Source: Anaerolineaceae bacterium
GTDB taxonomy: Bacteria > Chloroflexota > Anaerolineae > Anaerolineales > Anaerolineaceae
Assembly (NCBI GenBank): GCA_039683035.1
Contig: JBDKSE010000020.1
Location: forward strand, 165,158 to 229,157
Reading direction: 5' to 3'
DNA length: 64,000 nucleotides
This document shows, in pieces, positions 20,124 to 37,311 of this stretch (position 1 is its first letter; each line of letters opens with the position of its first letter). The translations under genes were made by a program, and so were the position numbers. The notes beneath the pieces were generated by a model. It was not told where the DNA came from. It did not search any database and worked only from the letters and a program-made list of their open reading frames with translations.

Positions 20124-20819
20124 ATGACGAAAAAGATCCTTGTGGTGGATGATGAACCGCAGATTGTGAAGGTACTGCAGCTTTACCTGGATCAGGCAGG
20201 GTTCCAGGTGGCGACTGCGATGGACGGCGACGAAGCGCTGGCGGTTTTTCGTCGGGAAAAGCCCGACTTCATCATTCTTGACCTCAACCTTCCGGGAATG
20301 GATGGACTGGATGTGTGCAAAGCCATCCGCAAGGATTCGAACGTTCCCATCCTGATGCTTACTGCACGCGTCGAAGAGGCAGACCGCCTGGTGGGACTGG
20401 AGCTTGGTGCCGATGATTACGTGGTCAAACCCTTCAGCCCGCGTGAGGTGGTGGCTCGTGTGCGCACCATTTTCCGCCGCTCTGAAGCTTCTCCTGTGGA
20501 GGGGGAAGTCGTGAGAGTCGGAGATCTGGAGATTGATCTTGGTTCGCACACGGTGCTTGAAGCAGGAAGTGCGATCGATCTGACGCCCACTGAATTCAAC
20601 ATTTTGATCACTCTCGCGCGAAACCCCCGAAGGGTTTTCTCGCGGCTTCAAATCATGGAACAATCGCAGGGCGATGCATATGAGGGATACGAGCGGACCA
20701 TCGATGCCCATATCAAGAACCTGAGGATGAAACTGGAACCCGATCCCCGCAAACCCAAATATATCCAAACTGTTTTTGGCGTGGGGTACAAGCTGGAAGT
20801 GGCGGGCGATGAAAAATAG
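20124..20819 (+). CDS. OmpR-family response regulator (canonical receiver)
   Basis: ILVVDDE, ILDLNLPGMDG, LMLTA and VKPF receiver motifs, plus a winged-helix C-terminus (IQTVFGVGYKL). Confidence 0.9.
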   Translation: MTKKILVVDDEPQIVKVLQLYLDQAGFQVATAMDGDEALAVFRREKPDFIILDLNLPGMDGLDVCKAIRKDSNVPILMLTARVEEADRLVGLELGADDYVVKPFSPREVVARVRTIFRRSEASPVEGEVVRVGDLEIDLGSHTVLEAGSAIDLTPTEFNILITLARNPRRVFSRLQIMEQSQGDAYEGYERTIDAHIKNLRMKLEPDPRKPKYIQTVFGVGYKLEVAGDEK

Positions 20820-22263
20820 TCTGCTCTTCAAATTGCTCGGTGCGTTTCTAATTGTCATCGCCATGGGCGCACTGGTAATGACATGGCTCACCAGCCGTGC
20901 CACGGAAAAGGCTTTTTCCCTGTATACCACCCGTAACGGGCAATATTGGGCTGAAATCCTTTCACCTTCGCTTGCTGACTTCTATCTCAATAAGAACAGT
21001 TGGCAGGGGGTGGCAGCTTACCTTCAAACATTTTCCGGCGTGAATATGAACATGGGCGCCGGGGGGATGATGGGACAGGGCAGGGGGTTTGGAAAAGGCT
21101 CGACAAACGGGAACGCGGTCATGTCGATGTCCGGCCAAAGGTTGATCCTGGCAGATGCCGCAGGAACAGTCATTGCCGATACCGGGGGAAGCCTGATTGG
21201 AAATCTGCTTGAGCCGGGGACGCTTTCGAGTGGCGCGCCGATTCTCGCCAATGGAGAGCAGGTGGGCACCCTCGTTGTCACCCCCGACACACTCGTGGCA
21301 GGCACCCCCGCCAGTGACTTCTTAACTTCCGTGAACAAGGCGATCATGAGTTCGGCAGGAATTGCTGCCGTTCTTGCCTTGATCATCGGGGCACTGCTTT
21401 TCTTGCAGATCATTTCTCCGGTGAGAAAGCTGAACCAGGCGGCTGCTGCCATTACCGCGGGTGACTTGGATCAGCGTGTGAGCATAAAGAGTCAGGATGA
21501 ACTGGGCGATCTCGGCAGCTCATTCAACCGCATGGCGGAAAGCCTTTCGAAGGCGGAAGATCAGCGAAAGAACATGATCGCCGACGTGGCTCATGAGCTG
21601 CGAACCCCCCTGGCAGCAATGCAGGGAACTCTCGAGGGAATCCAGGACGGTTTGATGCCTTTCGACCGGGAGCAGGTCGATTCACTGCTGGCTGAAACCA
21701 CCCTCCTTACGCGCATGGTTGGCGATTTGAGGTTGTTATCGCTGGCTGATGCGGGTGAACTTGTGCTTGAAAAACGCATGACATCCCCCGGCAGTCTGTT
21801 TGAGTCAATCGTCGAGCGCGCCGGGTCTCTTGCCCAGGTCAAAGGAATTAGCCTCAACCTATCTCTTCAACCTGATTTGCCCTCCATTTGGGTCGATCCC
21901 GACCGCATCACCCAACTGGTGAACAATCTGATCACCAATGCGTTGCGTTACACCCCCAGGAACGGCGAGATCAGGCTCAACGTGGCACACGCCGAAGGCG
22001 ATTCCTCTCTTCAGGTTTCTATCACCGATACCGGGCGCGGGATCGATGCCAGGGATCTGCCCTATGTCTTTGACCGGTTCTATCGGGCTGAAAAGTCACG
22101 CTCGCGGTCAAGCGGCGGCTCAGGCCTGGGTCTGGCCATTGTCAGGCAACTCGTCGAAGCGCACGGGGGAAAAGTGACAGCCGAAAGTCCCGTCTTCACC
22201 AGAGAAGACGGAACACGCTATGGAACAAGGATCAGCTTTTCGTTGCCATTGGGCGGAAATTAA
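20809..22263 (+). CDS. HAMP-domain sensor histidine kinase
   Basis: ATG 20809 overlaps the regulator stop. Two TM segments, HAMP, H-box ADVAHELRTPL, N-box NLITNALRYT and G-boxes DTGRGI / GGSGLGLAI. Confidence 0.9.
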   Translation: MKNSLLFKLLGAFLIVIAMGALVMTWLTSRATEKAFSLYTTRNGQYWAEILSPSLADFYLNKNSWQGVAAYLQTFSGVNMNMGAGGMMGQGRGFGKGSTNGNAVMSMSGQRLILADAAGTVIADTGGSLIGNLLEPGTLSSGAPILANGEQVGTLVVTPDTLVAGTPASDFLTSVNKAIMSSAGIAAVLALIIGALLFLQIISPVRKLNQAAAAITAGDLDQRVSIKSQDELGDLGSSFNRMAESLSKAEDQRKNMIADVAHELRTPLAAMQGTLEGIQDGLMPFDREQVDSLLAETTLLTRMVGDLRLLSLADAGELVLEKRMTSPGSLFESIVERAGSLAQVKGISLNLSLQPDLPSIWVDPDRITQLVNNLITNALRYTPRNGEIRLNVAHAEGDSSLQVSITDTGRGIDARDLPYVFDRFYRAEKSRSRSSGGSGLGLAIVRQLVEAHGGKVTAESPVFTREDGTRYGTRISFSLPLGGN

Positions 22264-22334: not shown

Positions 22335-22511
22335 CATCATATGAACGATTTCCATTTTGACCATTTCGTTACTTGATGTTACTGGAAACCTTATTGGTAA
22401 ACGTGTAATCCCGCCCTGAAAGAATTGAATAGCTGCACACATCCCGGGAGGATAATTGCGCCTCACCGGAGGGTATTTCTATTTCTGAAACAGACACGGA
22501 GGTTCTTTGAA

Positions 22512-25500
22512 ATGAAGAATGGGAAAATGATTGCGATCGTTGGCATGGGCGCCCTGCTGCCCGATGCTTTTGATGTTCCTTCATTCTGGAACAATGTCGT
22601 CAATGCGAGATACTCGGTGACAGAGGTCCCGGCTGATCGTTGGAACACGGACCTGTATTATGACCCCGATCATTCCGCAGTGGACAAGACTTATTCGAAG
22701 ATTGGCGCTTTTGTACGCGGCTACCAGTTTGATCCTCTGAAGAACGGTTTGATCATTCCTCCAAAGCTGCTTTCAGCGATGGATTTTACCCAGCAATGGG
22801 CGATCGCGGTGAGCCAGCAGGCGCTCAAGGATTACGGCTACCCTGAGCGCAAGCTCAACCCTGAACGGGTGGCGGTGATATTCGGCAACGCCAATGCCGG
22901 TGAATACCACTACCGTTCCACGTTCAGAATTCTCCTGCCGGAATACATCCAGGCATTGAAAGCCATCCCCGATTTTGAAAATCTTCCCGAACCGGTCAGG
23001 GAAGGGTTGATCAAGGGCTTCACCGAAAACATCCGCGCCAAGTCCCCTGCCATCAGCGAAGATACAATGCCGGGCGAGCTCTCGAACATCATCGCCGGGC
23101 GCGTTGCAAACATATTCAATTTCACCGGCCCCAATTTTGTCACCGACGCAGCCTGTGCCTCCTCGCTGGCAGCCATTCAAGCCGCCTGCCAGGGGTTGCT
23201 CGAGGAGAAATTCGATGCTGTGCTTACCGGCGGCATTGACAGGCATATGGGACCCGAGTCCTATATCAAATTCTGCAAAATTGGCGCGCTCAGCGCCGAC
23301 GGCAGCCGGCCGTATTCCGACGGGGCAAACGGCTTTGTGATGGGCGAAGGCGCCGTGGTCTTCCTGATGAAACGCCTGGAAGATGCCGAACGCGATGCTG
23401 ACCGGATCTACGCGGTCATCCGCGGCATCGGAGGAAGTTCCGATGGCAAAGGCAAGGGGATCACCGCGCCCAATCCGGCTGGTCAGCAACTGGCGATTTC
23501 ACGCGCCTGGCAGGATGCGCAGGTGGCTCCGCAGCAGGTTGGACTGGTGGAGGGGCACGGTACGTCCACCAAAGTGGGTGATGTGGCAGAGGTTGCCAGC
23601 CTGGATGCGATTTTTGGCCCGCTGGGTCTCAAGAACTCAAGCGTGGTGCTGGGTTCCATCAAGTCGAACATCGGGCACCTGAAAGGTGCTGCTGGTGCTG
23701 CCGGCTTGCTCAAGACGGTACTCGCCCTGCACCATCAAACCCTTCCCCCCACCGTCAATTTTGAGCGGCCGAATCCAAACATTGATTTTGCCCACCTGCC
23801 CTTCCGGGTGATCAATGCTGCCCAGGAGTGGCAGGTCAAAGAAGACGGGCACCGCATCGCCGGGGTGAGCGCCTTCGGCTTTGGCGGTACCAATTTCCAC
23901 GTGGTCATGGAAGAGTATTTCCCCGGTATCTCAGGCGATGAAACCGCTTCCCATACCGTGCCGGCGAAGATCGAAACAATGAGCCAGGCATCAATATCGC
24001 AGCCGTCTCCGCTCCCCCAGTCGACAGCACAAAGTCGCGAGGTTTCCGGTGTGGACGTAGACGCCGTCAGGGAATTCGTTCTTTCTGTGGTGGCTGAAAA
24101 AACCGGTTATCCCGTTGAAATGCTCGAGCTGGATCTGGATCTGGAAGCCGACCTGGGCATCGATACGGTCAAGCAGGCGGAGCTTTTCGCCACTGTCCGC
24201 ACTCACTACGATATTCCGCGGCGCGAGGACCTGAAACTCTCGGATTACAACACGCTGGCCAAGGTGGTGGGCTTTGTCACCGACGCACATGGCAGCGGGA
24301 AAACTGACGCAACCGTGAATGTGCAGGTCGAAAACGCAACCGCTGAACCTCCCTCGACTTTACCTGCGGCTTCACCCGCAATGACCGACGCTGTGCCGGA
24401 CGAACCGCTCAAGCCCTACCAGGGTTTGTTCTTCGCCTCGGCATCAGACATTCAGGCATTGCAGGCAATGGTGCAGCATCAGATTGCCGTCTTGAAATCA
24501 GGCGGCACCTATGAATCGCATTGTCCGTCCGGGCAGGAATTGGCCGGGCGTGAAAGGATCGCCATTGACTATGCCGCTGACGACGAACTGGTCAAGCGGC
24601 TGGAAAAGACACTCGAGGCGTTCAAGAACGATACTCCCAGCACCTGGAAAGCCATGCAGGCGCACGGCGTTTATCGCGGAAGCGGCAAGCCCGGCAAAGT
24701 GGCGTTCCTGTTCCCCGGGCAGGGCTCCCAGTATGTGAATATGCTGTTGGATCTGCGCGACACGGAACCCCTCGTCCGCGATACCTTTGACGAAGCAGAC
24801 AGGATCATGACCCCGATACTGGGGCGGCCGTTGACAAGCTTCATTTACACCAATGGAACCGATGAAGAACTCAAAAAAGCAGAACAGGAGCTGAAGAATA
24901 CTGCCATCACCCAGCCGGCTATGTTGACTGCCAATGTGGCAGTGATGCGTGTGCTCAACAAATACGGCGTGCATCCTGACATGGTGATCGGCCACAGCCT
25001 GGGAGAATATGCCGCGCTGGTTGCCGCAGGCGTGCTCAGCTTCGCCGAGGCGCTGGAAGTGGTCAGCGCCCGCGGGCGGGAGATGAGCAAGATCAAAGTG
25101 GAGGATCCGGGCTGCATGGCAGCCGTCTCGGCGCCGCTGGAAAAGGTACAGGAGATCATCCAATCCATTGACGGTTATGTGGTGATCGCCAATATCAACA
25201 GCCCTCTGCAATCCGTCCTGGGCGGCTCGACAGAAGCGATTGACAGGGCGATCGCTCTGTTCACTGAGGCGGGTTTCCAGGCGTCCAAAATCCCGGTCTC
25301 GCACGCTTTCCATACCAAAATCGTTGCACCCGCCAGTGAGCCGCTGCGTTCAGTCATCGCGCGCATGAACGTGCGGCGCCCGACTCTGCCGGTCGTCGCC
25401 AACGTCACCGGCGAACTCTACCCGGCGGACCGCGAAGCGATCCTGGACCTGTTGGCTGACCAGGTAGCTTCGCCGGTGCAGTTTGTCAAAGGCATGCAGA

Positions 25501-28500
25501 CCCTGTACCGTGAGGGTGTGCGGGTCTTCATCGAATCGGGTCCGAAGCGTGTTCTGAATGCATTAGCCCAGGACAACCTGAAGGACCTGACAGACGTGGC
25601 CATTATCGCCACGAATCACCCGCGCAAGGGAGGCAAGGCCAGCTTCAACGAAGCACTGTGTGGTATCTATGCTGCCGGAGTCCCTGCCACCAATGTGGCC
25701 AACGAATCCGCTCAGCTTGCAGAACCTGCCCGGGCAGATGAAGCTCATGCCCAACCGGGTTCATTCGACGGGACGCTCCCAATCACCGGCTCGGTGGTCA
25801 TCACAGGTGCAGGTCTTGGTTTGCCTGGGAAGAAGAACCATGTCTTCGATGATGACAACATCAATAAAATTCTTCGCGGTGAAATGCGGATTGAAGGCAT
25901 CGATGACAATTCGCGGCAGGCGATCCTGGAAAAGCACGTAACGCGTCTGGTTAAAAGCGACGCCGGAGCGGTCATGGAAGAGATTACCGACCTCGACAAG
26001 GTTGTCAAGCTCGCTGGTCAATCTGGTGAATTTGACCTGGCGGACGAGTTTGGGGTTCCAGAAGACAGAGTGGAAGCCCTGGACATATCTTCAAAGCTGG
26101 CGATTGCTGCAGGAATCGAAGCCTTGAGAGATGCAGGAATACCGCTGGTCATGTCCTATCGCAAAACCACAAAAGGCACGTGGCTTCCTGACCGATGGAA
26201 GCTGCCTGTATCGATGCGTGATGATACAGGGGTTATTTTCGGATCAGCTTTTCCGGGTTTGAACCGCATCGTTGAAGAATCTGACCGCTTCTACCAGGTG
26301 AAACTGCTTGAGCGGCAGCTCGAAGAGGTCAGATCATTGATGGAGGCCGTCAAGGCATCCGGGATATCTTCCGGAACCTCACTTCTTGAATATATGGAGT
26401 GCCATGCGGCAGATCTTGAAGCAAGGATTGGCGAGTCGGTCTACCAATTTGACCGCAGATATGTATTCCGTATTCTTGCGATGGGTCATTCGCAGTTTGC
26501 CGAATATATCGGCGCGCGTGGACCGAATACCCATGTCAACGCAGCCTGCGCGACGACTACGCACGCTTTATCAGTGGCGGAGGATTGGATCCGAACCGGA
26601 CGCTGCCGCCGTGTCGTGGTCATTTCGGGAGATGACGTAACGAAGGAAAATTCACTGGCGTGGATTGGCTCTGGCTTGTTTGCCAGCGGTGCTGCCACTA
26701 GTGAGGGAAACCTGCGTCTTGCTGCAATCCCCTTTGACAAACGGCGCAACGGCATGATCGTTGGTATGGGCGCTGCAGCTCTGGTGGTGGAGAGCGAGGA
26801 TGCAGCTCGGGAAAGGGGCGTGAGAGGAATTGGTGAAATCCTCTCCTCCGTCACCGCCAACAGCGCTTTTCATGGCACAAGGTTGGATGAATTGCATGTC
26901 AGCGAGATGATGGACCGACTTTTGCAAACTGCCGAAAGAAGGTTTGGAATCGACCGGCATGCCATTGCACACGAAACCGTCTTCATGTCGCACGAAACCT
27001 ACACACCGGCACGCGGCGGCAGTGCCAGCGCTGAAATTCATGCACTGCGCGCCTGCTTTGGCGAGCAGGCCAACCAGGTGATCATCGCCAATACCAAGGG
27101 CTTTACCGGGCACTCGATGGGGGTGGGCATTGAAGATGTGGTAGTCACCAAAGCCCTGGAAACCGGCATCGTTCCGCCCATTGCCCATATCCAGGACGGC
27201 TTTGAGCCGGATCCCGAACTGGGTGATCTGAACCTGTCAAAGGGCGGGGCTTATAACCCCCAATACTCTCTGCGGTTGGGCGCCGGCTTTGGATCACAAA
27301 TCGCCATGACCCTGGTACGCAGAATTCCGGGCGCCGGAGAGCGGATCGACCGCGAAAGGTACTCAAAGTGGCTGGCGAGCGTCAGCGGTCATGATCATGC
27401 GGAAACCGAGCGCGTCAACCGCACGCTGCGTATTAAAGATCAGGGTGTTCCGGCAAATGAGCCAGCGGCGTCCACCTGGCAATACGGGTATCTGCCCTCG
27501 CAATGGGCAATGTCTAGAATTACGGCATCTGAACCGAACCCCGTTGTGATGCCTGCCAGCGTACCCGTGCATTCCACGGAAGTTGAACCGAAGCCTTCTG
27601 AGACGCAAAGCATGCCGACCCCGGCAAGTTCGAGCCCGCAAAGCGAGGAGATCAAACGGCATGTGCTGGCAGAAGTCAGCGAGAAGACGGGTTATCCCGT
27701 CGAGATGCTGGATCTCGATCTGGACCTCGAAGCCGACCTGGGTATCGACACGGTCAAGCAGGCAGAGTTGTTTGCTGCCATTCGCACGCATTACGGTATT
27801 CCCCGCCGGGAGGACTTGATACTCGCCGATTACAACACGCTTTCCAGGGTGATCGGTTTTGTAGAGGAGAACCTGGGTGGTGCAGGGCAAGCCTTAATCG
27901 CTGAAGCAGCCCCTTCACCGATTGTCGCCCAGGATCAAGAGGTTGCTCCAACACCATCCGCCGAGACCGAGGCGATCAAAGCGCACGTGCTTTCCGTGGT
28001 CAGCGAGAAGACGGGTTATCCCACCGACATGCTGGATCTCGACCTTGATCTGGAAGCTGACCTGGGCATCGACACGGTCAAGCAGGCAGAGTTGTTTGCT
28101 GCCATCCGCACCCATTACGGCATTCCCCGCCGCGAAGATCTGATCCTTGCAGAGTACAACACACTGGCCAAAGTGATCGGCTTCGTGGAAGATGCTTTGG
28201 CTGCAACCAGCCAACAAGCCACTGACGCGGCAGACGGCACGGCAGCAGAGAACTCAGAAAAAGAGACTTCTGCAGCTGGTGAAGCAAGTGGGTCGTTGGC
28301 TTTCAGGGCCCCCGCACTGGTTTTGCTGCCCAAGACAGAACTCTGCCAGAAAACGGACGTGTTGCTTGCCAACCGGGAAGTGCTGATTGTCGCCAATTCA
28401 ACCAAGACAGGCAGCTCGCTTTCGAAAAAGCTGAAAGCTGCCAAAGCCAACCCTGTGATTGTGGATATTTCCACTGTGAAGGAAAAAGTGGAACAAATGG

Positions 28501-30794
28501 CGAAGGCCGGAACGCTGGCCGGAGTTTACTATCTCGCGGGGCTGGAAAGCACGTTTGATCTGCAATCCTCTCCCCGCGAGGCGTGGGTTCCACAGCGCTC
28601 ACAACTGCTCGACCCGCTGTTCGACCTGGCAAAGGTGCTTCCGGAATCCGCTTTCCTGGTCTGCGCTACATCGATGGGTGGTTTGCTGGGGTTCATCAAT
28701 AGCGAAAATCCGTCAGGTGGACTGGTCAGCGGATTCACCAAAGCCTTGAAGCGCGAGAGACCCGGTCAGTTGATCAAGGTGGTCGACTTCAGTTCCGCGG
28801 AGACACACCAGAACATCGCCGAAATCCTGGTCAAGGAGACAATGAACGATCCGGTGACCGTGGAAATTGGCTATGAAGGCGGATCACGGTTCTCGGTCAA
28901 GCTCAACGAAATGGATATGCAGGCGGTCAAAGAGACTACCCTGCCAAAAGGCTGCACCTTCGTTGTCAGCGGCGCCACCGGCGGCATCACTGCCCCCGTT
29001 CTGTTCGATCTTGCAAAAGCAACGCAGGGATCTTTCTACCTGTTGGGGCGGACGAAGCTACCCTCAAAAGAAGATGCCAACCTGCAGATGCTGAAGAATG
29101 ACCGGAATGCTTTCCGAAAGGAATTGCAGAAACGATCGCAGGAAAAGGGCGAGAAGGTGACGCCTGTGCAGCTCGATCAGAAGATCACGGCTCTGGAACG
29201 CGCGGCATCCATGATCGACTTGCTCGACTCCCTGCGTTCGACGGGGGCGGCGGCAAAATACATCCTCTGTGATGTGACTGATCCGCAGGATGTGGATGCG
29301 GCGGTCGCAGAAATCAAACACGCAACCGACCATGTGGATGTCTTCATCCACGCCGCGGGCATTGAAAAGAGCCGCAAGGTGGAAAGCAAGAGCGCAGAGG
29401 AATTCGAGCAGACTGTTGCAGTAAAAGTGGACGGTTTCCAATTCCTCTTCAAGGCATTGGAGAATGCCGGCAGGCTGCCTGGGTCAATCGTTTCCTTCTC
29501 TTCGGTGGCTGGCAGGTTTGGCAATGCAGGACAGACGGATTACAGCGCCGCAAATGATGCGCTTTCCAAACTGGCTTTCTGGCTGCCCTCACAGTATCCT
29601 GCGCTTCACTCGGTTTCGCTGGATTGGGGCGCCTGGGCTGAGGTGGGCATGGCGAGCCGGGGGAACATCCCGGCGTTGATGGAGCGCGCTGGCATTGAGA
29701 TGCTCAAGCCGGAAACAGCAGCTCCGATGGTCCGGCAGGCTCTTGAGCTGGGTCTATGCGGCGAGTATGTCGTCGCGGGCTCGCTCGGATCGCTGGATTC
29801 AGGCTGTCAGAACAACTGCGGCGTGGATGTCGAGACAGCCAACCAGGCGCTGCGCGCCGGAGATCCCATCCACAAGATGTTCAGTTCGGTGACCGCGTTC
29901 AGCGTGGAGCAGGGCATCCGGTTGGAAGCCGAGCTTGATCCCGCCCAGGAATTCTACTTGCACGATCACATGATCAATGGCATTCCGGTGCTGCCCGGAG
30001 TGATGGGCATCGAGGGGTTCTCGGTTGCCGCAAAGCATATCGCTTCGGTGCTGGGATCGAATCACGCTCCCTTCGAAGTAAGCCGCCTGGAAAACGTGCA
30101 ATTTCTGGCGCCCTTCAAGTTTTACGGCAACAAGGCGCGCACCATCCAATGGAACGCGGTCGCCTTCCGCACCCTCGAAGGAATCAGGGTCGAAGCCAGG
30201 CTGGAATCGGATGTGACCCGCAGAAATGGCGGAGTCGAGCATATGCTGCACTTCACCGGAACGGTCTTTCTTACTCCAGACGTACCGGCAGAAGAGCAGA
30301 TGGTCAAACCGCCGAAGTGGAATCAAAAGAACTCTGTCTCATCCGACGACATTTACAAGCTGTTCTTCCACGGCCCGTCTTTCCAGGTGCTGGAATCGGC
30401 CCAACTGAGCAACGGGAAAGTGCTTGGTAAATTCAACAAGAAGGTGGTTGAAATTGCCGCCGATGACCCCGCGCTGTTTGCAACCCCGCTGCTCATCGAA
30501 ATGTGTTTCCAGACCGCAGGCTTGTACCAGGCAGGAGCTACCGGCGTGCTGGCGCTTCCGCAATCCGTTGGGTCGCTCAAGCTCTTCAAACGACCGCTCA
30601 ACGGCGTGGCGATTTTCGCCGAGGTGAACCCGCGCATGGAAGGCGAGTCTTATGTCTTTGACGCCAGGGTGGTGGATGCAAAGGGAAATGTCTTCCTCGA
30701 GCTGACGGATTACCGCACCTCTGCGCTGCCGTACCCCGCCGAACAGCAACTGGTGGAACCGCTGAAGAAGCTGGTCCCGCTGGCTGGAGACTGA
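22512..30794 (+). CDS. PfaA-like iterative type I polyketide/fatty-acid megasynthase, KS-CP-AT-KS-CP-CP-KR-DH
   Basis: 2760 codons from ATG 22512, with GGAGG 9 nt upstream. Catalytic motifs are listed in the domain features below. The ORF-track start at 22425 adds 29 non-conserved residues. Confidence 0.9.
   Translation: [2760 protein letters not shown]
22527..23925 (+). other. Domain: ketosynthase 1 (Cys-His-His intact)
   Basis: [11 protein letters not shown] (Cys codon 23154-23156), [23 protein letters not shown] and [10 protein letters not shown]. Confidence 0.85.
24051..24290 (+). other. Domain: carrier protein 1 (PfaA-ACP-like, Thr at the expected Ser site)
   Basis: [34 protein letters not shown]; the Thr codon ACG is at 24165-24167. 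Confidence 0.75.
24690..25570 (+). other. Domain: acyltransferase (malonyl-type)
   Basis: [17 protein letters not shown] (Ser codon 24996-24998) and SHAFHT. Confidence 0.85.
25780..27320 (+). other. Domain: ketosynthase 2 (Cys-His-His intact, so not a CLF)
   Basis: [12 protein letters not shown] (Cys codon 26547-26549), [18 protein letters not shown] and GAGFGSQ. Confidence 0.75.
27645..28199 (+). repeat. Tandem duplication encoding carrier proteins 2 and 3 (units about 27645-27875 and 27966-28199)
   Basis: Long near-identical DNA runs, for example gagaagacgggttatccc...ggatctcga...gacacggtcaagcaggcagagttgtttgctgcca in both units. Period is about 320 nt. Thr codons are at 27750-27752 and 28074-28076. 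Confidence 0.85.
28290..29790 (+). other. Domain: ketoreductase (structural plus catalytic subdomains)
   Basis: [10 protein letters not shown] Rossmann motif near 28960 and [20 protein letters not shown] (Tyr codon 29541-29543). Confidence 0.8.
29880..30780 (+). other. Domain: PKS-type (double hot-dog) dehydratase
   Basis: HxxxGxxxxP motif as [10 protein letters not shown] (His codon 29967-29969). The position is C-terminal, as in PfaA. Confidence 0.75.
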
Positions 30795-30848: not shown

Positions 30849-31559
30849 ATGACAATCTATTGGACATACACATCCATTCAGTCGATCTTTGACTTGTTTC
30901 CGGCAGGGGAGTTGCGAGACCTGCTGGGAAAAGACGAGCAAGCCTATCTTGATCATCTGCGGTTTGAAAAACGCCGCCGGGAATGGCTGGCGGGCAGACT
31001 GGCGCTCAAAGCCTTATTGATTGAATCCTTCCAAAACCTTGCTTCGAGAAGATTCAATCAATTGCAGATACTGAAAGAGGAAGGGGGGGCTCCGCGTCTC
31101 GCATTGGATGAGGGGGAAACTCCCATCCCGATTTCGCTCAGTCATTCCAATGGATCTATCTTTTGCGCCTGTTCCACCGGCCAGTCCCCCATAGGTGTGG
31201 ATTTGGAGCTGATCGAGGAACGCTCCCAGGCGTTCATCAGCGATTATTTTACGCCTGAAGAAATCAGCCAGGTCGAACGGCATACACCGCAAAAACGATC
31301 CCTGTATTCCACCCTGGTTTGGAGTGCCAAGGAAGCTGTCTTGAAGGCCCTTTCCATTGGCTTGAAGATGGATACCCGCAGGATCAATGTGAATCCGGAA
31401 TCCACTTCGTTTGAAGCAGGGTGGAAAATTCCCTGCAGCCCGGTTTTGATTCGGCAAAAAGAATCTCTGCGCCTTTTGTGGCGCAGAGAGGGTTCCTTCG
31501 TTCTGACGGTGTGCTTCGATGGTGCTCTATCCGTTGATTTTCGCCGGATCCTTATTTAG
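30849..31559 (+). CDS. Sfp-type 4'-phosphopantetheinyl transferase (PfaE-like)
   Basis: RBS GGAGG. Motifs WLAGRLALKAL, SLSHSNG, GVDLE and WSAKEAVLKAL. Confidence 0.85.
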   Translation: MTIYWTYTSIQSIFDLFPAGELRDLLGKDEQAYLDHLRFEKRRREWLAGRLALKALLIESFQNLASRRFNQLQILKEEGGAPRLALDEGETPIPISLSHSNGSIFCACSTGQSPIGVDLELIEERSQAFISDYFTPEEISQVERHTPQKRSLYSTLVWSAKEAVLKALSIGLKMDTRRINVNPESTSFEAGWKIPCSPVLIRQKESLRLLWRREGSFVLTVCFDGALSVDFRRILI

Positions 31560-33189
31560 CCATATTTTCTGACGGCTTAATGTTGGCGATCTGGCTGGCA
31601 AAGCGGATCCCCTGGGCTTCGAGGGTTCGAATGCGCCACAGATAGGCTGCGCCCTGCAGAAGCTGCATGGATACATCCACAACCTGGCGGTTCTCAGGTT
31701 TTTCCAGATAGGTGTTCCTTGCCCAGTCGTTGAATGCGCCCATGGATGGACCGCACCAGATCTGGTAGTCCATCTCGCGCCCTTTTTCACCAATGCTTGC
31801 CCAGCGCGAAGACAAACCCAAATACCAGCGGAAGATGAGCGCCATCTTGTCTTTGGGCTTTTTATTCGCGCGTTCGATCTGCTTGGGGTCGCGCTCGCTG
31901 AAGAATTTCACGCATTCGTTCCAGACGGAGTCCAGGCTCTGCTTGAAGATCGTTGATTCCAGCTTTTCACGCTCGGCAGGGGGGATTTCATCGATGGATT
32001 CGTATCTTTGATAAATCTCGTACAGCTTCAGACCGCGCATGGCAAACATGGTCCCGCGTTTGAGCACCTGCACCTTGACGCCCATTTCGAACATATCGCT
32101 GGCGGGAGCCATGGCAACGTCGGTGGTTTCCATCTGCGAAAGGAGAGCTTTGCTGTGAGCCGAGGCTCCAGATTCCACGCACCCCTGATTGACGGACCCG
32201 GTGGTGACGTAGGCCGCCCCCATCATGAACGCCGCCAGCGCGGCTGCCGGGGTCGCAATCCCTCCGGCTGCGCCGATCCTCGTCATTTGGGCAAACTGAT
32301 ACTTTTCCTGCAGGGTATCTCTCAGCTGGATGATTGCGGGCAGGATGCTCACCAGCGGGCGGTTATCGGTATGTCCGCCTGAATCGGCTTCAACCGTCAC
32401 ATCGTCTGCCATGGGCACGAATTGGGCGAGCCGGGCTTGATCGGCGGTCACCTTGCCCTCTGCCAGGAGTTGATTGACCATATTTTGATCGGCAGGCTGA
32501 AGGAATTTTTGCGCGACTTCCTTGCGCGAGACCTTGGCGATGATGCGGTGGTTGATCTTCACTGTACCGTCAGCGCCCTGCGATAATCCGGTCAGGCGGT
32601 ACCAGACCAGGTTGGGGGTCAGGGTCAGGTAAGCCGAAGCTTCGATGGCGCGGATGCCGTGCTGGATGTACAACTCCGCGGTTCTGGCTTCCAAAGCCGG
32701 TTCAAAGGGGCTGTTGATCAGGTTGAACAGGTAGGGGCTGTCGCCCAGTTCGGTCCGGATGCGGTCGATTGCTTTTTCCACGCGGGTTGGAAGGCAGCCG
32801 CCTGCACCAAAGGATCCCATCAAGCCTGCCCTGCCAAGCGCGATCACCATCTCTTCCGAGGAGATCCCATTGGCCATCGACCCGGCGTAAAGCGGGTATC
32901 TTGTTCCATAGGTTGTCTTGAACGCTGGATCCCCTAGATCAGTGGGCTCCAGTTCAGGGCAAAAACCGAACATTTGAAAACCATTATTTGACGTCGCTCC
33001 CGCCGCTCCTTCATGGGCGGTGAAATATTCGCCGTTTTTTCGCAAAAGGTAAAAAGGCCTGTCCAGTCTCAACAGGGCAGCGCACAACAAATCGGCGGTC
33101 GCTGGTTCGGGTATACCGTTATTTGCCCATCCAAACCCGGCAGTCTGACCAGGATGCAAAGCCCTGACCAAAGGTTCTTGTGAATTCAA
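31552..33189 (-). CDS. pfaD: PfaD-family FMN-dependent enoyl reductase (trans-acting ER)
   Basis: 545 aa. LGDPAFKTTYGTRYPLYAGSMANGISSEEMVIALGRAGLMGSFGAGG and ...EADSGGHTDNRP... are typical of PfaD. TTG start at 33189 with GGAGGT 5 nt upstream. Confidence 0.9.
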   Translation of the reverse strand: MNSQEPLVRALHPGQTAGFGWANNGIPEPATADLLCAALLRLDRPFYLLRKNGEYFTAHEGAAGATSNNGFQMFGFCPELEPTDLGDPAFKTTYGTRYPLYAGSMANGISSEEMVIALGRAGLMGSFGAGGCLPTRVEKAIDRIRTELGDSPYLFNLINSPFEPALEARTAELYIQHGIRAIEASAYLTLTPNLVWYRLTGLSQGADGTVKINHRIIAKVSRKEVAQKFLQPADQNMVNQLLAEGKVTADQARLAQFVPMADDVTVEADSGGHTDNRPLVSILPAIIQLRDTLQEKYQFAQMTRIGAAGGIATPAAALAAFMMGAAYVTTGSVNQGCVESGASAHSKALLSQMETTDVAMAPASDMFEMGVKVQVLKRGTMFAMRGLKLYEIYQRYESIDEIPPAEREKLESTIFKQSLDSVWNECVKFFSERDPKQIERANKKPKDKMALIFRWYLGLSSRWASIGEKGREMDYQIWCGPSMGAFNDWARNTYLEKPENRQVVDVSMQLLQGAAYLWRIRTLEAQGIRFASQIANIKPSENMAK

Positions 33190-33298
33190 TCGACACCTCC
33201 ATGCTGATATAGGTTAACAACCCTGAAGGCAGCGTTTTGTTGCACGTTTTGCATGAAGAGCAACCATCAATTTTGTGGACCGGGAAACCGGACAGGCA

Positions 33299-33332
33299 TA
33301 AAGAAAGCCGGGAGATGAGTGATTCTCCCGGC
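33299..33332 (-). terminator. Intrinsic terminator of the small membrane-protein gene
   Basis: Perfect stem GCCGGGAGA/TCTCCCGGC, followed on the minus strand by TTTCTTT. Confidence 0.65.
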
Positions 33333-33359
33333 ATCTCAAGAACGGATCTGGCTGAAGGA

Positions 33360-33569
33360 CTAAACGCCCAGGTACTTCAACAGCGCCATCACCAGGAATA
33401 CGGGCCAGACAAGGGCTTTGAGCAATCCCAGCACCCCCAGGCCGAAGGTCGTTGCCTGTCCGATGAAGTAAATGGCTGCGCCGATGAAGCCAAGCCCGTA
33501 AACGGCGTCGCCGCCGCCGCGATGATGAATTGTTCTTACCGGTCGAACTACAGCGGGTTGTTCAGACAT
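33360..33569 (-). CDS. Small (69 aa) two-TM membrane protein
   Basis: YGLGFIGAAIYFIGQATTFGLGVLGLLKALVWPVFLVMALL. It is followed by a terminator. Confidence 0.55.
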   Translation of the reverse strand: MSEQPAVVRPVRTIHHRGGGDAVYGLGFIGAAIYFIGQATTFGLGVLGLLKALVWPVFLVMALLKYLGV

Positions 33570-33697
33570 TTCATTCTCCTTTGTCGATTTCTACATTCAT
33601 ATACGTATGAACGTATGCGGGGTTGTGCGAACCCTCCGCCGGAGAATGACCGGATAGATAGACTGAAATCAATGAAACTGGATCGCCCGGTAAGTAT

Positions 33698-34039
33698 CTA
33701 CTCCTCCCATTCGAATCTTCGCGGCTCCGGGCAGATCTCGATCTGCTGATCCGCTTCCAGCGAATAAATCGGAACTGAATCAGGGAAGAGGATCACGCCG
33801 CCGGCCGGCAGGCGTTTTTCCCTGAGGATGGCAGCGAACACCAGCTGCTCGTCTTCTGAAAGCACCGGGTCCAGCCCGCGTCTCCGGGCAATGAACTTCG
33901 GCGCGATCGGAAAGCCGTCCAACTCAATTTTGGCGGGCAATTTCCCATTGGAGCGTATGTATTCTACGATTTGAGGCCTGGAGGCGTAAACCACGGCGGT
34001 GAATCTCAATTCCTGTTCGGTGTACTTGTGCAGTTTCAT
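33698..34039 (-). CDS. Hypothetical protein (113 aa)
   Basis: ATG 34039 with AAGGAG 7 nt upstream. The ORF-track N-terminal extension to 34243 has no RBS and an Arg-rich, GC-artefact composition. Confidence 0.55.
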   Translation of the reverse strand: MKLHKYTEQELRFTAVVYASRPQIVEYIRSNGKLPAKIELDGFPIAPKFIARRRGLDPVLSEDEQLVFAAILREKRLPAGGVILFPDSVPIYSLEADQQIEICPEPRRFEWEE

Positions 34040-34397
34040 TTTGAATCTCCTTAAGATGCATGAATCCGGCTTGCGAGAAGCCAAAGGTGCGCTGCACCAG
34101 GGGAGATTATTTTGGGGGCGAAAAGGGAAGGAAGCCCGGTTAAAACAAAAACGGAGCTGTTTTTCGAGAGGATCTTCTCGCGCATCGAGACGCTTGCGTC
34201 TCAGGCACCGATGCCGTCTCCAGGCCGGTTGCCAGTCCGCCAACGGCGGACATTCCTGATGTACTTTTGTTTATACGAAAAAGGAGGGGGGAAGTCAAGA
34301 GGGGAGGGATTTGATGTATTGATAAGCAATTGTTAAGGTTTGAGAACAAAAGGTTCTGTATACTATATGACATGGGGGATTAATTAGTAGACCTCGT

Positions 34398-34422
34398 AAT
34401 TACTAATAGAGCCTATTAGAAT
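34398..34422 (+). repeat. Left copy of the bipartite direct repeat AATTACTAAT-N7-ATTAGAAT
   Basis: aattactaat at 34398-34407 and attagaat at 34415-34422. The same two blocks recur at 36497-36515. The reverse complement attagtaat is at 34621-34629. Confidence 0.5.
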
Positions 34423-34831
34423 CCAACTATTTTGTTAAATTGTCATCAAGGAATAATATTTTGTTTACTGTACTAAAGGATTCACAAATTGCCATTGAAG
34501 CTAATTCAATTTAGGCTGGCTTGAATTTTCGAAATTGCTTAGCCTGTATACAAATAAGTGAATGATTATAAAAACTTCTATGTTACGGAACGATCTTAAA
34601 AGACTCAAAAGTATCATTGGATTAGTAATAATAAGCCATTCTTTGTGAAGATTTCCAATGAATATATGCTCATTTTCGAATTTTTGAGAGGAAGAAAGTC
34701 AAGACTTCGCCGTTGTTCAACAAATGCAAAGTCTGATTTTTGAGCTCTCCAAACCTTCTGCAACTTAACTATTGATCTAGCCCCAATTTACTCCGCGAGA
34801 AAATTACCATATCAAGAGGATTATCCTAAAT

Positions 34832-35602
34832 ATGACTGATGAGAATTTCTTTTCAAATCCAGAGCCACTACTCGCAACGCTCGCCAACCTTTTTGCTTCC
34901 TCTGGAGCTGCGCGTGAAGTTGCTGTTCTAGCAAATTCAACAGCGAGAATCAAACAAACTAGTTATGATAATTGGAATGGCGGGACCTATGGGTATTCAT
35001 TATTCTTGCAGATACCTAATTGGCTCTACAATCAAGTAATTAGCGAAATTGAGAGTATCGAGAAATCTCTCTCTGAGAAGGCAAATCTGCTCTCAAGAGG
35101 TAATGAGAATGAGTTTTTAGAAAGAGTATACGTAACTCCGCAAATTGCAGATGATAATGAATGGAGGGAAAAAGCAAAAGCTTGGTTATCAGGTGATGGG
35201 ATTTCTAATCAAGGACGTGTTCATTCGGACAATATTCCATCAAGGACAATGGATGGCTTGTTATTTAGATCCCAACCAGAAATATTTTTATACATTGCAC
35301 TTAAATCATCTGGAGTTTCATTCGCTCCATTAGCAGTATTTATTCGCGGGGGAGAGAGCTACAAAAGAATTGAACCTGACTTCTTTATTGTAAAGGATGG
35401 CATTTCCTTGGTAGTTGAAGTTGATGGGGACACTGTCCATCATGAAACCCCTGTTGAAGCTCACTCAAGAACATCCATGCTTGTTTATGAAGGGGTTCAT
35501 ATTGAGAGGGTTAGGGCAAGCGAATGTGAATCACAGTTTTTAGCAAACGCTTGTGCGAAGAAAATTATGACCGTAATTGAGAAATTAAAATCTACTCGCT
35601 AA
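34832..35602 (+). CDS. Unknown N-terminal domain fused to a DUF559/Vsr-like PD-(D/E)xK endonuclease domain
   Basis: The C-terminal 110 aa, FRSQPEIFLYIALKSSGVSF...RIEPDFFIVKDGISLVVEVDGDTVHH...YEGVHIERVRASE, follow the (P)DF...hhVEhDG..H...R pattern of DUF559/Vsr-like nucleases. I did not recognise the N-terminal 140 aa or so. Confidence 0.55.
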   Translation: MTDENFFSNPEPLLATLANLFASSGAAREVAVLANSTARIKQTSYDNWNGGTYGYSLFLQIPNWLYNQVISEIESIEKSLSEKANLLSRGNENEFLERVYVTPQIADDNEWREKAKAWLSGDGISNQGRVHSDNIPSRTMDGLLFRSQPEIFLYIALKSSGVSFAPLAVFIRGGESYKRIEPDFFIVKDGISLVVEVDGDTVHHETPVEAHSRTSMLVYEGVHIERVRASECESQFLANACAKKIMTVIEKLKSTR

Positions 35603-35719
35603 AAAATTTTTTGCAACAGATGTATTACTACACTACATCAGGTTTGTTTTGACGTGTCACCACTGTTGAAAATTAAAGCACCGTAAGCCAAATCTTAAAT
35701 TAGGAAAACGGGAGCATTT

Positions 35720-36496
35720 ATGATCGAGAGGAAATCACAAAATAGAAGAAGAATCTTCATACGGGCCAAAGATAAGGTATGCCAGATTTTCAGTTTTAAA
35801 CAATCTGCTGATGGATCAATATATTGTTCATCATCGGATTTCGATGATGCGAATTGGTTTAGTGCAGTATTAACAGAAATTGGACCTCAACTAGTAACAA
35901 CTGAGCCAGTTGGGGAGGGAAAGATAAGCTTTCACGGGTCTGGCATGGTAGCGATCCGACCAAATGACGATCCAAAAGGACACCGATTAATAATTAAAGG
36001 TAATAATTTATTTAACAAAATGGAGGAAAAAGTTGGCATCCGCCATCTCTTTACAATTTTCTCGAAAGAACCGAAGTATCAACCGACATCTTCCCCCATT
36101 TTTAATCGTGATGGTGATTATTGCATAGAAGCGAACGAAGAATTAAAGCCATTCGTGTTAGTTTTCTTTGCTGCACCACAAGGGCTATCGATCAGTTTCC
36201 AATTCAATCTGCACATGGATGACATGATAAATATACCAAACGATTTTTTGGGACTTAATGGTTTTAGTCTTCGGTACCATGATATTCTTTGGTTTGCATA
36301 TCGGACAAACCATATGGAAAAGTGGCCCAAACAAGCTCAAGTAGTCTATCATGATGGTTATTCATTTCCAATTTTTATTGGAACTGGATTAGGTATAGGC
36401 AGATGGGAGTTCCGACAGCCTCTGTATTCCTTAAACGGTAATAATCTTGAAATAATATGCAATCGAAATTACTCTGATGATTATTCAAACCCTTGA
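35720..36496 (+). CDS. Hypothetical protein (258 aa), no recognisable domain
   Basis: ORF with GGGAG 6 nt upstream of the ATG. It has the same strand and AT-rich composition as the nuclease-fusion gene, and there is no terminator hairpin in the 117-nt spacer. Confidence 0.55.
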   Translation: MIERKSQNRRRIFIRAKDKVCQIFSFKQSADGSIYCSSSDFDDANWFSAVLTEIGPQLVTTEPVGEGKISFHGSGMVAIRPNDDPKGHRLIIKGNNLFNKMEEKVGIRHLFTIFSKEPKYQPTSSPIFNRDGDYCIEANEELKPFVLVFFAAPQGLSISFQFNLHMDDMINIPNDFLGLNGFSLRYHDILWFAYRTNHMEKWPKQAQVVYHDGYSFPIFIGTGLGIGRWEFRQPLYSLNGNNLEIICNRNYSDDYSNP

Positions 36497-37134: not shown

Positions 37135-37238
37135 TGCGCGACAATACAAACGACGATCAAAGCGGTAAAAAGCAAACCTCAGTTGGTCTGTCCCTTCATG
37201 TGAGGCTACATCTCATTTTCCCCCATTAAATAAAAAAG

Positions 37239-37311
<73 letters not shown>

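What the first reader, a model, noticed from the sequence alone, without database searches (positions are those of the whole stretch)
24051..28199. All three carrier domains have Thr instead of the phosphopantetheine-accepting Ser
Seen in sequence: the three carrier domains align closely with PfaA ACP repeats (EKTGYP.EML.LD.DLEADLGID-x-[IV]K). Each reads DLGIDTVKQAELF. The Thr codon is ACG at 24165-24167, 27750-27752 and 28074-28076.

Established knowledge: in ACP/PCP domains the residue after the (L)GxD is the Ser that receives 4'-phosphopantetheine. Ser-to-Thr changes in E. coli ACP have been used to produce non-modifiable protein.

Inference: three independent copies, one of them well diverged at DNA level, keep Thr, so this is selected rather than a sequencing error. 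Either the adjacent dedicated PPTase accepts Thr, or these domains work without the prosthetic arm.
Basis: partly seen in the sequence, partly recalled or inferred. Interest (0 to 1): 0.68.

Follow-up and report, generated by a model that had tools for sequence, protein, structure and literature searches.

The report
Carrier domains with threonine, not serine
A giant lipid-building enzyme carries threonine where every known acyl carrier protein has the serine that holds its swinging arm; the swap is fixed across a large, many-phylum enzyme family that always travels with its own arm-attaching enzyme, which points to an undescribed protein modification.

Summary
One 2,760-aa PfaA-like megasynthase (22512-30794, +) has three carrier domains that each read DLGIDTVKQAELF, with ACG Thr codons at 24165, 27750 and 28074. 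Sequence alignment to solved ACPs and an AlphaFold model (pLDDT 89.7, helix II starts at the Thr) put this Thr at the position of the phosphopantetheine-accepting Ser.

It is not a local oddity. In 66 related loci from at least 8 phyla, 215 of 216 carrier domains have Thr, using all four Thr codons. Wider searches added several hundred more Thr domains (samples overlap) and only one further mixed array.

The KS, AT, second KS, KR and DH catalytic residues are all conserved. A PPTase with intact catalytic residues is linked in every locus that extends far enough, and these PPTases form their own clade.

The cluster matches the uncharacterised "Type R secondary lipid synthase" of Shulse and Allen (2011). 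I found no paper that mentions the Thr.

Best reading (about 0.7): the Thr is phosphopantetheinylated by the co-evolved PPTase. This would be a new acceptor residue for a universal modification. It has not been tested experimentally.

The parts
22512..30794 (+). PfaA-like iterative megasynthase, 2,760 aa: KS1-CP1-AT-KS2-CP2-CP3-KR-DH. The mechanical ORF starts at TTG 22425; the likely start is ATG 22512.
   Evidence: (TIGR02813 PfaA scores 1011.4 bits against a cutoff of 1010.1)
22530..23921 (+). KS1 domain. Active Cys212 (DAACASS), plus His in EGHGT and NIGH.
   Evidence: Cys/His/His conserved in 32-34 of 34 full-length relatives
24051..24305 (+). Carrier domain 1, inserted between KS1 and AT. 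Motif DLGIDTVKQAELF at 24150-24188.
24165..24167 (+). Thr552 codon (ACG) at the canonical phosphopantetheine-acceptor position of CP1
24705..25634 (+). Malonyl-type acyltransferase domain (GHSLG, HAFH)
   Evidence: Ser and His conserved 34/34
25899..27581 (+). Second ketosynthase-like domain, called 'CLF' in the Type R description. It keeps Cys1346 (NAACATT) and both His. Boundaries are approximate.
   Evidence: (Cys, His, His conserved 34/34)
27645..27890 (+). Carrier domain 2. Motif at 27735-27773.
27750..27752 (+). Thr1747 codon (ACG), the first residue of helix II in the AF2 model
27969..28214 (+). Carrier domain 3. Motif at 28059-28097.
28074..28076 (+). Thr1855 codon (ACG) at the acceptor position of CP3
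28956..29642 (+). Ketoreductase domain (catalytic Tyr in DYSAAN)
   Evidence: Tyr conserved 34/34
29883..30743 (+). PKS-type dehydratase domain (HxxxGxxxxP)
   Evidence: His conserved 33/34
30849..31559 (+). Dedicated Sfp/HetI-type 4'-phosphopantetheinyl transferase, 236 aa. It belongs to the clade that accompanies Thr-type carriers.
31552..33189 (-). PfaD-family trans-acting enoyl reductase, convergent with the PPTase and overlapping it by 8 bp
   Evidence: TIGR02814 scores 650.8 bits against a cutoff of 449; conserved beside the synthase in the Anaerolineae-type loci

Best explanation
The three domains are working acyl carrier domains of an iterative PUFA-synthase-like lipid megasynthase. 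Their 4'-phosphopantetheine arm is attached to a threonine hydroxyl, not a serine hydroxyl.

Proposed mechanism: the PPTase encoded next door (30849-31559) transfers phosphopantetheine from CoA onto Thr552, Thr1747 and Thr1855 at the N-terminus of helix II. It belongs to a distinct clade that has co-evolved with these carriers. The holo-domains then carry malonyl and growing acyl thioesters between KS1, AT, KS2, KR and DH in cis and the PfaD enoyl reductase in trans.

What is shown: the position of the Thr, its fixation across the family, the intact catalytic residues, and the PPTase linkage and separate clade.

What is inferred: that the Thr is actually modified. A further inferred consequence is that requiring Thr makes priming depend on the dedicated PPTase, so these carriers would be insulated from AcpS or Sfp-type enzymes that need Ser. 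A Thr phosphodiester might also be chemically more stable.
For: (1) Position. The Thr aligns to the acceptor Ser of solved ACPs. It is the first residue of helix II in a confident ACP-fold model. The flanking Asp and Val are invariant, and no other Ser is conserved.

(2) Selection on Thr itself. In 66 loci, 215 domains have Thr and 1 has Ser, with codons ACC 107, ACG 89, ACA 14 and ACT 5, although Ser is one base change away. Overlapping samples from the protein searches add more: 122 Thr in 120 hits, 426 Thr domains in the best 150 representatives, and 344 Thr against 0 Ser. Thr stays while the helix-II residues after it vary: VKQAE, VKQVE, VKQVD, VKQVA, VKQAT, IKQAQ, ITQIE.

(3) Sister families carry the same motif with Ser: DSVKQAE in 37 metagenome stretches, plus DSIKRVEI and DSIKKAQL arrays. 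So Thr occupies a true acceptor site.

(4) Two arrays mix one Ser domain with Thr domains, L070 and P0339.

(5) The synthase needs a thiol arm. The KS1 Cys/His/His, AT Ser/His, KS2 Cys/His/His, KR Tyr and DH His are conserved in 32-34 of 34 full-length relatives. The window holds no other carrier domain.

(6) PPTase. One is linked in 52 loci, and 4 of 4 remote PPTase homologues sampled sit beside Thr-type synthases. The Mg and base residues are kept (Sfp H90, D107, E109, E151, K155). In a held-out profile test, Thr-linked PPTases score 191-308 bits, Ser-linked ones 64-83 and Sfp 50. The signature E131/R133/F137/R181/D183/R185/W200 is absent from all 10 Ser-linked PPTases.
Against: There is no experimental evidence of any kind, and no holo-protein mass is available. 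I know of no natural Thr acceptor for phosphopantetheine. Ten literature searches found none. From memory, E. coli ACP S36T is not modified by AcpS. Ser and Thr almost never mix, which shows they are not interchangeable here; that would also fit a Thr-specific role unrelated to the arm. In the two mixed arrays the lone Ser domain could be the only true carrier. The Ser-linked PPTase comparison set is small (10 sequences from a few families). I could not model the PPTase-carrier complex, so no pocket change that would fit the Thr methyl group has been identified.
Confidence: 0.7

Rival explanations
1. The Thr domains are never modified. They act as structural, docking or regulatory ACP-like modules, and the enzyme takes its substrates on a discrete Ser-type ACP (for example the housekeeping AcpP) or as CoA thioesters. 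On this view the linked PPTase serves some other carrier.
For: Ser-to-Thr is the classic way to make a non-modifiable ACP (from memory: E. coli S36T). No Thr acceptor was found in the literature. Two arrays keep one Ser-type domain in first position.
Against: More than 99% of arrays have no Ser domain at all. Arrays of 2-5 tandem copies with an invariant D-T-V-K-Q core across phyla look like working PUFA-type carriers. A dedicated PPTase stays linked to the synthase even when the cluster has no other acceptor. A non-modifiable dummy would tolerate Ala, Gly or Asn at this position, yet only Thr is seen.
Confidence: 0.13
2. The Thr carries a different modification, or the PPTase uses a donor other than CoA, so the carrier arm is not plain phosphopantetheine.
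For: The PPTase clade is well separated from Sfp, which scores 50 bits against 191-308 bits for clade members, and it has its own conserved charged residues.
Against: The PPTase keeps the canonical CoA/Mg motif residues (GxDxE, WxxKEAxxK). KS, AT, KR and DH are standard thioester-handling domains. Nothing else in the cluster suggests an alternative cofactor.
Confidence: 0.05
3. Thr is a neutral or nearly neutral substitute that ordinary PPTases accept well enough, so it has no special meaning.
For: Thr and Ser both offer a hydroxyl group, and two mixed arrays exist.
Against: Neutrality predicts frequent Ser/Thr mixing. The observed ratio is 215 to 1 in 66 loci, with heavy synonymous turnover at the Thr codon. 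Sister families are just as strictly Ser-only. The PPTase clade co-varies with the carrier type.
Confidence: 0.07
4. The Thr is a sequencing, assembly or alignment artefact, or another residue is the real acceptor.
For: None found.
Against: The same codon position holds in three copies that are 72-80% identical in DNA, and in hundreds of independent assemblies. Sequence and structure alignments agree on the position. No other Ser is conserved within the domain.
Confidence: 0.01

Closest known systems
Tandem ACP domains of PfaA in bacterial PUFA synthases (pfaABCDE; motif LGIDSIKRVEIL)
   Same: Same fold. Same N-terminal EKTGYP...LDLEADLGID context, tandem arrangement, PfaA-like host protein with PfaD and an Sfp-type PPTase nearby.
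   Different: The acceptor is Thr, not Ser. Helix II reads TVKQAE, not SIKRVE. The host protein has a second full KS and one carrier domain moved to between KS1 and AT. There are no PfaB, PfaC or FabA-type DH genes.
'Type R' secondary lipid synthase cluster of Shulse and Allen 2011 (PMC3098273): KS-MAT-CLF-ACP(3-6)-KR plus a downstream PPTase, in Koribacter, Solibacter, Elusimicrobium and Roseiflexus; product unknown
   Same: Single pfaA homologue with this domain order, followed by a PPTase. The same phyla appear among the relatives, Acidobacteriota and Chloroflexota.
   Different: The paper never mentions the acceptor residue: the words serine and threonine each occur 0 times. Here the 'CLF' keeps Cys/His/His, a DH domain is present, and the Anaerolineae form adds PfaD and relocates one ACP. 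I did not check directly that the named Type R strains carry Thr.
Engineered Ser-to-Thr acceptor mutants of E. coli ACP (S36T), used as non-modifiable apo-ACP
   Same: Same substitution at the same structural position.
   Different: Those are laboratory mutants that AcpS does not modify (from memory, not checked with these tools). Here Thr is the natural, fixed state, paired with its own PPTase clade.
Sfp/HetI/PfaE-type (group II) phosphopantetheinyl transferases
   Same: ACPS and 4PPT_N domains, about 236 aa. Conserved His, GxDxE and WxxKEAxxK residues, and encoded in the cluster.
   Different: A separate clade. Sfp scores 50 bits on the clade profile, against 191-308 for members. Clade-specific residues sit at Sfp positions 112 (Glu), 114 (Arg), 118 (Phe), 162 (Arg), 164 (Asp) and 166 (Arg). 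The best NCBIfam hit, HetI, is far below its cutoff (60.8 against 370).

Membership tests
Acyl/peptidyl carrier protein (Pfam PP-binding, PF00550) | Four-helix ACP fold and profile match | tested here: met
   PF00550 matches three stretches at 71.8 bits against a cutoff of 20.8. AF2 pLDDT is 89.7. Foldseek TM is 0.77-0.84 to AcpP, AntF and Thermotoga ACP.
Acyl/peptidyl carrier protein (Pfam PP-binding, PF00550) | Conserved Ser at the N-terminus of helix II (the D-S-L/I/V motif) as the phosphopantetheine acceptor | tested here: not met
   That position holds Thr in all three domains and in 215 of 216 domains of 66 related loci.
Acyl/peptidyl carrier protein (Pfam PP-binding, PF00550) | Covalent 4'-phosphopantetheine on the domain (holo form) | not testable with these tools
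   Needs mass spectrometry of protein co-expressed with the 30849-31559 PPTase.
PfaA (TIGR02813) of PUFA synthases | Whole-protein profile score above the curated cutoff | tested here: inconclusive
   1011.4 bits against a cutoff of 1010.1, spread over five stretches. This is borderline.
PfaA (TIGR02813) of PUFA synthases | Works within a pfaABCD set (PfaB AT; PfaC KS-CLF with FabA-type DH domains; PfaD ER) | tested here: not met
   Only PfaD and a PPTase are adjacent. No PfaB or PfaC genes or FabA-like DH were found among the neighbouring ORFs or large ORFs scanned in the window.
Type R secondary lipid synthase (Shulse and Allen 2011) | One pfaA homologue, KS-MAT-CLF-ACP(3-6)-KR, followed by a PPTase gene | tested here: met
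   The domain order is KS-[CP]-AT-KS2-CP-CP-KR-DH with a PPTase 55 bp downstream. There are two variations: one CP sits before the AT, and the CLF-position domain keeps an active-site Cys.
Sfp-type (group II) PPTase | ACPS-superfamily domain pair with the Mg/CoA and catalytic-base residues (Sfp H90, D107, E109, E151, K155) | tested here: met
   PF01648 scores 63.1 bits, and PF17837 gives a weak hit. All five residues are present in the window protein and are 88-100% conserved in 52 linked PPTases.
Sfp-type (group II) PPTase | Transfers phosphopantetheine to a carrier-protein Ser | not testable with these tools
   The only carriers in the cluster have Thr. An enzyme assay is required.

The most novel reading that the evidence does not exclude
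O-(4'-phosphopantetheinyl)-L-threonine is a natural, previously undescribed post-translational modification. A Thr-adapted PPTase clade installs it on the carrier domains of a very widespread but uncharacterised lipid megasynthase family found in Chloroflexota, Acidobacteriota, Actinomycetota, Myxococcota, Gemmatimonadota, Verrucomicrobiota, Bacteroidota and one archaeal MAG. Together the PPTase and its carriers would form a priming system orthogonal to the Ser-specific AcpS and Sfp enzymes.
Probability: 0.6. Interest if true: 0.82.

Novelty: new variant of a known kind. Interest (0 to 1): 0.72.

Why it matters
As far as I know, every carrier protein of fatty-acid, polyketide and non-ribosomal peptide synthesis described so far holds its arm on a serine. 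Annotation rules, PTM databases and protein-engineering tags are built on that assumption. Here a whole family breaks the rule: hundreds of 50%-identity protein clusters, common in soil and sediment bacteria, each keeping a private PPTase.

If the Thr is modified, three things follow. The chemistry of phosphopantetheinylation gains a second acceptor residue. A natural orthogonal PPTase/carrier pair becomes available for site-specific protein labelling and for insulating engineered pathways. Heterologous expression of these clusters with Sfp or host AcpS would be expected to fail unless the cognate PPTase is supplied.

If the Thr is not modified, a catalytically complete megasynthase works without tethered carriers, which would be even stranger.

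Either outcome can be tested directly with one co-expression and one mass spectrum. A cultured strain that carries the system is available: Anaerolinea thermolimosa IMO-1 (locus L024).

Tried and rejected
(1) Another Ser as the acceptor. Rejected: the only other Ser residues in the domains are not conserved even among the three window copies, and the family alignment has no invariant Ser.

(2) A Ser-type carrier hidden elsewhere in the window. A six-frame motif scan found only the three Thr domains.

(3) Stand-alone Thr-type ACP genes. The short 65-140 aa hits looked like discrete ACPs. The one I checked (P0001) is a frameshift fragment of a full megasynthase in a long-read MAG.

(4) Literature. 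All ten full-text searches found nothing on a Thr acceptor. They covered motif strings, phrases for phosphopantetheinyl-threonine, the DSL motif and Type R. The 'DST motif' papers concern the residue after the Ser, not the acceptor.

(5) PDB sequence search with the PPTase. It returned only AcpS and fungal FAS PPT domains, not Sfp. I therefore added the Sfp sequence by hand after checking it against 1QR0 and 4MRT.

(6) Naming cultured Type R strains. The third homologue search returned only fragments of 750 aa or less without organism names, so I could not confirm Thr in Roseiflexus, Solibacter, Koribacter or Elusimicrobium.

(7) Modelling the PPTase-carrier complex. No multimer tool was available, and only window sequences may be submitted, so this was not possible.

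(8) The rest of the window. It is ordinary chromosome with no further lipid genes and only one tRNA.


Full report
**What is in the window**

ORF 22425-30794 (+), with a likely ATG start at 22512, encodes a 2,760-aa protein. Pfam and NCBIfam give the domain order KS, carrier domain, malonyl-type AT, a second KS-like domain, two carrier domains, KR and a PKS-type DH. The PfaA subfamily model TIGR02813 scores 1011.4 bits, just above its cutoff of 1010.1.

A 236-aa ACPS-superfamily PPTase follows 55 bp downstream (30849-31559, +). A PfaD-family enoyl reductase lies convergent to it (31552-33189, -; TIGR02814 at 650.8 bits). The neighbouring ORFs are a response regulator, a histidine kinase and proteins with no family match. 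The rest of the window is ordinary chromosome with one tRNA-Lys.

**Checking the observation**

The three carrier domains each read DLGIDTVKQAELF. The Thr codons are ACG at exactly 24165-24167, 27750-27752 and 28074-28076.

- phmmer against all PDB chains aligns this Thr to the acceptor Ser of both PigH ACPs (DLGVDSIALAE and DLGIDSVSVA), Thermotoga ACP and other ACPs.
- An AlphaFold2 model of carrier domain 2, built on a 46-sequence alignment, has mean pLDDT 89.7. Its helices span 2-15, 36-50 and 66-78, so helix II begins at the Thr (residue 36).
- Foldseek matches canonical ACPs at TM 0.77-0.84 and rmsd 1.4-1.6 A.
- The three copies are 72-80% identical in DNA and share no other conserved Ser.

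A structure-aware alignment therefore does not move the acceptor position to another residue.

**How general it is**

A genome-collection scan with the whole protein returned 80 loci. They come from Chloroflexota, Acidobacteriota, Actinomycetota (Solirubrobacterales, Acidimicrobiia), Myxococcota, Gemmatimonadota, Verrucomicrobiota, Bacteroidota and one Thermoplasmatota MAG. The closest relatives reach 63% identity and include the cultured Anaerolinea thermolimosa IMO-1.

In the 66 loci (window included) that reach the carrier region, 215 of 216 carrier domains have Thr. The codons are ACC 107, ACG 89, ACA 14 and ACT 5. The single Ser (TCG) is in L070. Every Thr codon is one base away from a Ser codon, so heavy synonymous turnover with almost no change to Ser means purifying selection for Thr itself.

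The protein searches give further counts, in samples that overlap:

| Search | Thr domains | Ser domains |
|---|---|---|
| Best 120 hits to one carrier domain | 122 | 0 |
| Third homologue search | 344 | 0 |

An exhaustive profile search of 1.84 billion representatives found 7,028 proteins at E<=1e-3 and 1,710 at E<=1e-30. The best 150 break down as follows:
- About 115 are Thr-only proteins holding 426 Thr domains.
- 34 are Ser-only proteins: canonical PfaA DSIKRVEI arrays and a DSIKKAQL family.
- One is mixed (P0339).

Within the Thr class the helix-II residues after the Thr vary (VKQAE, VKQVE, VKQVD, VKQVA, VKQAT, IKQAQ, ITQIE), but the Thr does not.

A metagenome scan for the Ser version, G[IV]D-S(TCN)-VKQAE, found 37 stretches. 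All readable ones were in other PKS-like families with Ser-only arrays. The same motif context thus exists with a normal Ser acceptor in sister families. This is further evidence that the Thr sits on a true acceptor site.

In the only two mixed arrays, L070 and P0339, a diverged first domain has Ser and the later domains have Thr.

**Is the enzyme otherwise functional?**

In 34 full-length relatives aligned with the window protein, the catalytic residues are conserved in 32-34 of 34:
- KS1 Cys, His and His
- AT Ser and His
- KS2 Cys, His and His
- KR Tyr
- DH His

This machinery is catalytically complete and handles thioesters, so it needs a thiol arm. The window holds no other carrier domain. 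The second KS-like domain is labelled CLF in the published description of this cluster type, but here it keeps an active-site Cys.

**The PPTase**

A homologue of the window PPTase lies immediately downstream of the synthase, or a few kb from it, in every locus that extends far enough. That is 52 PPTases in total. In L070 it is fused to the synthase.

I sampled four remote PPTase homologues (33-39% identity) from the protein database on long contigs. All four sit beside Thr-type synthases.

Aligned with Sfp (sequence checked against 1QR0 and 4MRT), the linked PPTases keep the catalytic and Mg/CoA residues: Sfp H90, G105, D107, E109, W147, K150, E151 and K155. They also share clade-specific residues at Sfp positions 112 (Glu, 98%), 114 (Arg), 118 (Phe, 98%), 162 (Arg), 164 (Asp, 96%) and 166 (Arg, 96%).

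I built a profile from half of them and scored the remainder:

| PPTase group | Score (bits) |
|---|---|
| Held-out Thr-linked PPTases | 191-308 |
| Ten PPTases linked to Ser-type DSVKQAE arrays | 64-83 |
| Sfp | 50 |

The seven-residue signature E131/R133/F137/R181/D183/R185/W200 is exact in 37 of 52 Thr-linked PPTases and absent from all ten Ser-linked ones.

**Interpretation**

The best-supported mechanism is that the Thr hydroxyl receives 4'-phosphopantetheine from CoA through the dedicated PPTase, and that the holo-domains then work as ordinary tandem PUFA-type carriers.

The anatomy, the selection on Thr and the PPTase co-variation are shown. The modification itself is inferred. Strict Thr-only and Ser-only arrays argue that the two residues are not interchangeable for their respective PPTases. 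This suggests an orthogonal priming system, possibly one that insulates this synthase from the housekeeping AcpS. That last point is speculation.

The main rival is that the domains are deliberately non-modifiable and the enzyme uses a discrete ACP or CoA esters. That reading struggles to explain three things:
- only Thr is ever seen at this position, never Ala, Gly or Asn;
- the domains come as 2-5 highly conserved tandem copies;
- a private PPTase is retained even though the cluster has no other acceptor.

I put Thr phosphopantetheinylation at about 0.7.

**Comparison with what is known**

The cluster matches the 'Type R' secondary lipid synthase of Shulse and Allen (2011, PMC3098273). That type is a single pfaA homologue, KS-MAT-CLF-ACP(3-6)-KR, followed by a PPTase. 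It was reported in Koribacter, Solibacter, Elusimicrobium and Roseiflexus, and its product is unknown. The paper contains neither the word serine nor threonine.

Ten full-text searches found no report of a Thr acceptor, of this motif, or of phosphopantetheinyl-threonine. The library lacks most subscription journals, so prior notice elsewhere cannot be excluded.

The domains meet the fold criterion of the carrier-protein family but fail its defining acceptor-Ser criterion. The host protein is borderline for PfaA, and the cluster lacks the PfaB and PfaC partners. I rate the finding as a new variant of a known kind.

**Other context**

- In Acidobacteriota and Actinomycetota, the synthase is flanked by ETF subunits, an acyl-CoA dehydrogenase and a eukaryote-like multidomain acetyl-CoA carboxylase, with the PPTase after the carboxylase.
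- In Anaerolineae, PfaD takes the place of those reductase genes.
- The product of any of these systems is unknown.

Noticed in passing
window 25899-27581 (second KS-like domain; Cys1346 codon within 26538-26558): The domain described as a chain-length factor in the published Type R architecture keeps the full Cys/His/His triad, here and in 34 of 34 full-length relatives. The megasynthase therefore appears to have two catalytically competent ketosynthases.
   Followed up: partly
window 24051-24305; also L001, L002, L009, L014, L024, L038, L042, L044, L118, L119: In a subset of the Chloroflexota (Anaerolineae-type) loci, one or two carrier domains sit between KS1 and AT, not in the tandem array after KS2. 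Loci from the other phyla keep all carriers after KS2.
   Followed up: partly
L013 6082-25679 (also L026, L120, L121): In Acidobacteriota and Actinomycetota, the Thr-type synthase is flanked by ETF alpha/beta, an acyl-CoA dehydrogenase and a roughly 1,900-aa eukaryote-like multidomain acetyl-CoA carboxylase, with the PPTase after the carboxylase. This looks like a self-contained module for malonyl-CoA supply and enoyl reduction. The PfaD of the Anaerolineae-type loci was not detected in them.
   Followed up: partly
L070 768-10742 (Thermoplasmatota MAG) and protein P0339: These are the only two arrays that mix acceptor residues: a diverged first carrier domain has Ser (DLGIDSVKQVEL, DLGVDSIKQAEA) and is followed by Thr domains. 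In L070 the PPTase is fused to the C-terminus of the synthase in one 3,325-aa ORF. Assigning such a cluster to an archaeal bin may reflect horizontal transfer or mis-binning.
   Followed up: partly
window 20124-20819 and 20776-22263 (+): An OmpR-type response regulator and a BaeS-like HAMP histidine kinase lie directly upstream of the megasynthase, on the same strand. Locus L119 also has a histidine kinase immediately upstream of its synthase. Whether these regulate the cluster is unknown.
   Followed up: no
window 33237-36496: Four ORFs of 170-258 aa next to the cluster (33237-33749 +, 33698-34243 -, 34832-35602 +, 35720-36496 +) have no Pfam match. It is unknown whether they are real genes or part of the lipid pathway.
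   Followed up: no
L122 4529-14941, and the short hits: Many database 'proteins' of 65-140 aa annotated as acyl carrier or phosphopantetheine-binding proteins may be fragments rather than discrete ACPs. In the one case checked (P0001 in L122), the 'protein' is a frameshift fragment of a Thr-type megasynthase in a long-read metagenome assembly.
   Followed up: partly
window 37361-38287 (-): A 308-aa ORF carries an 'Ig-like domain from next to BRCA1 gene' (PF16158, 95 bits), beside tRNA-Lys(CTT) at 37238-37311. It seems unrelated to the finding.
   Followed up: no
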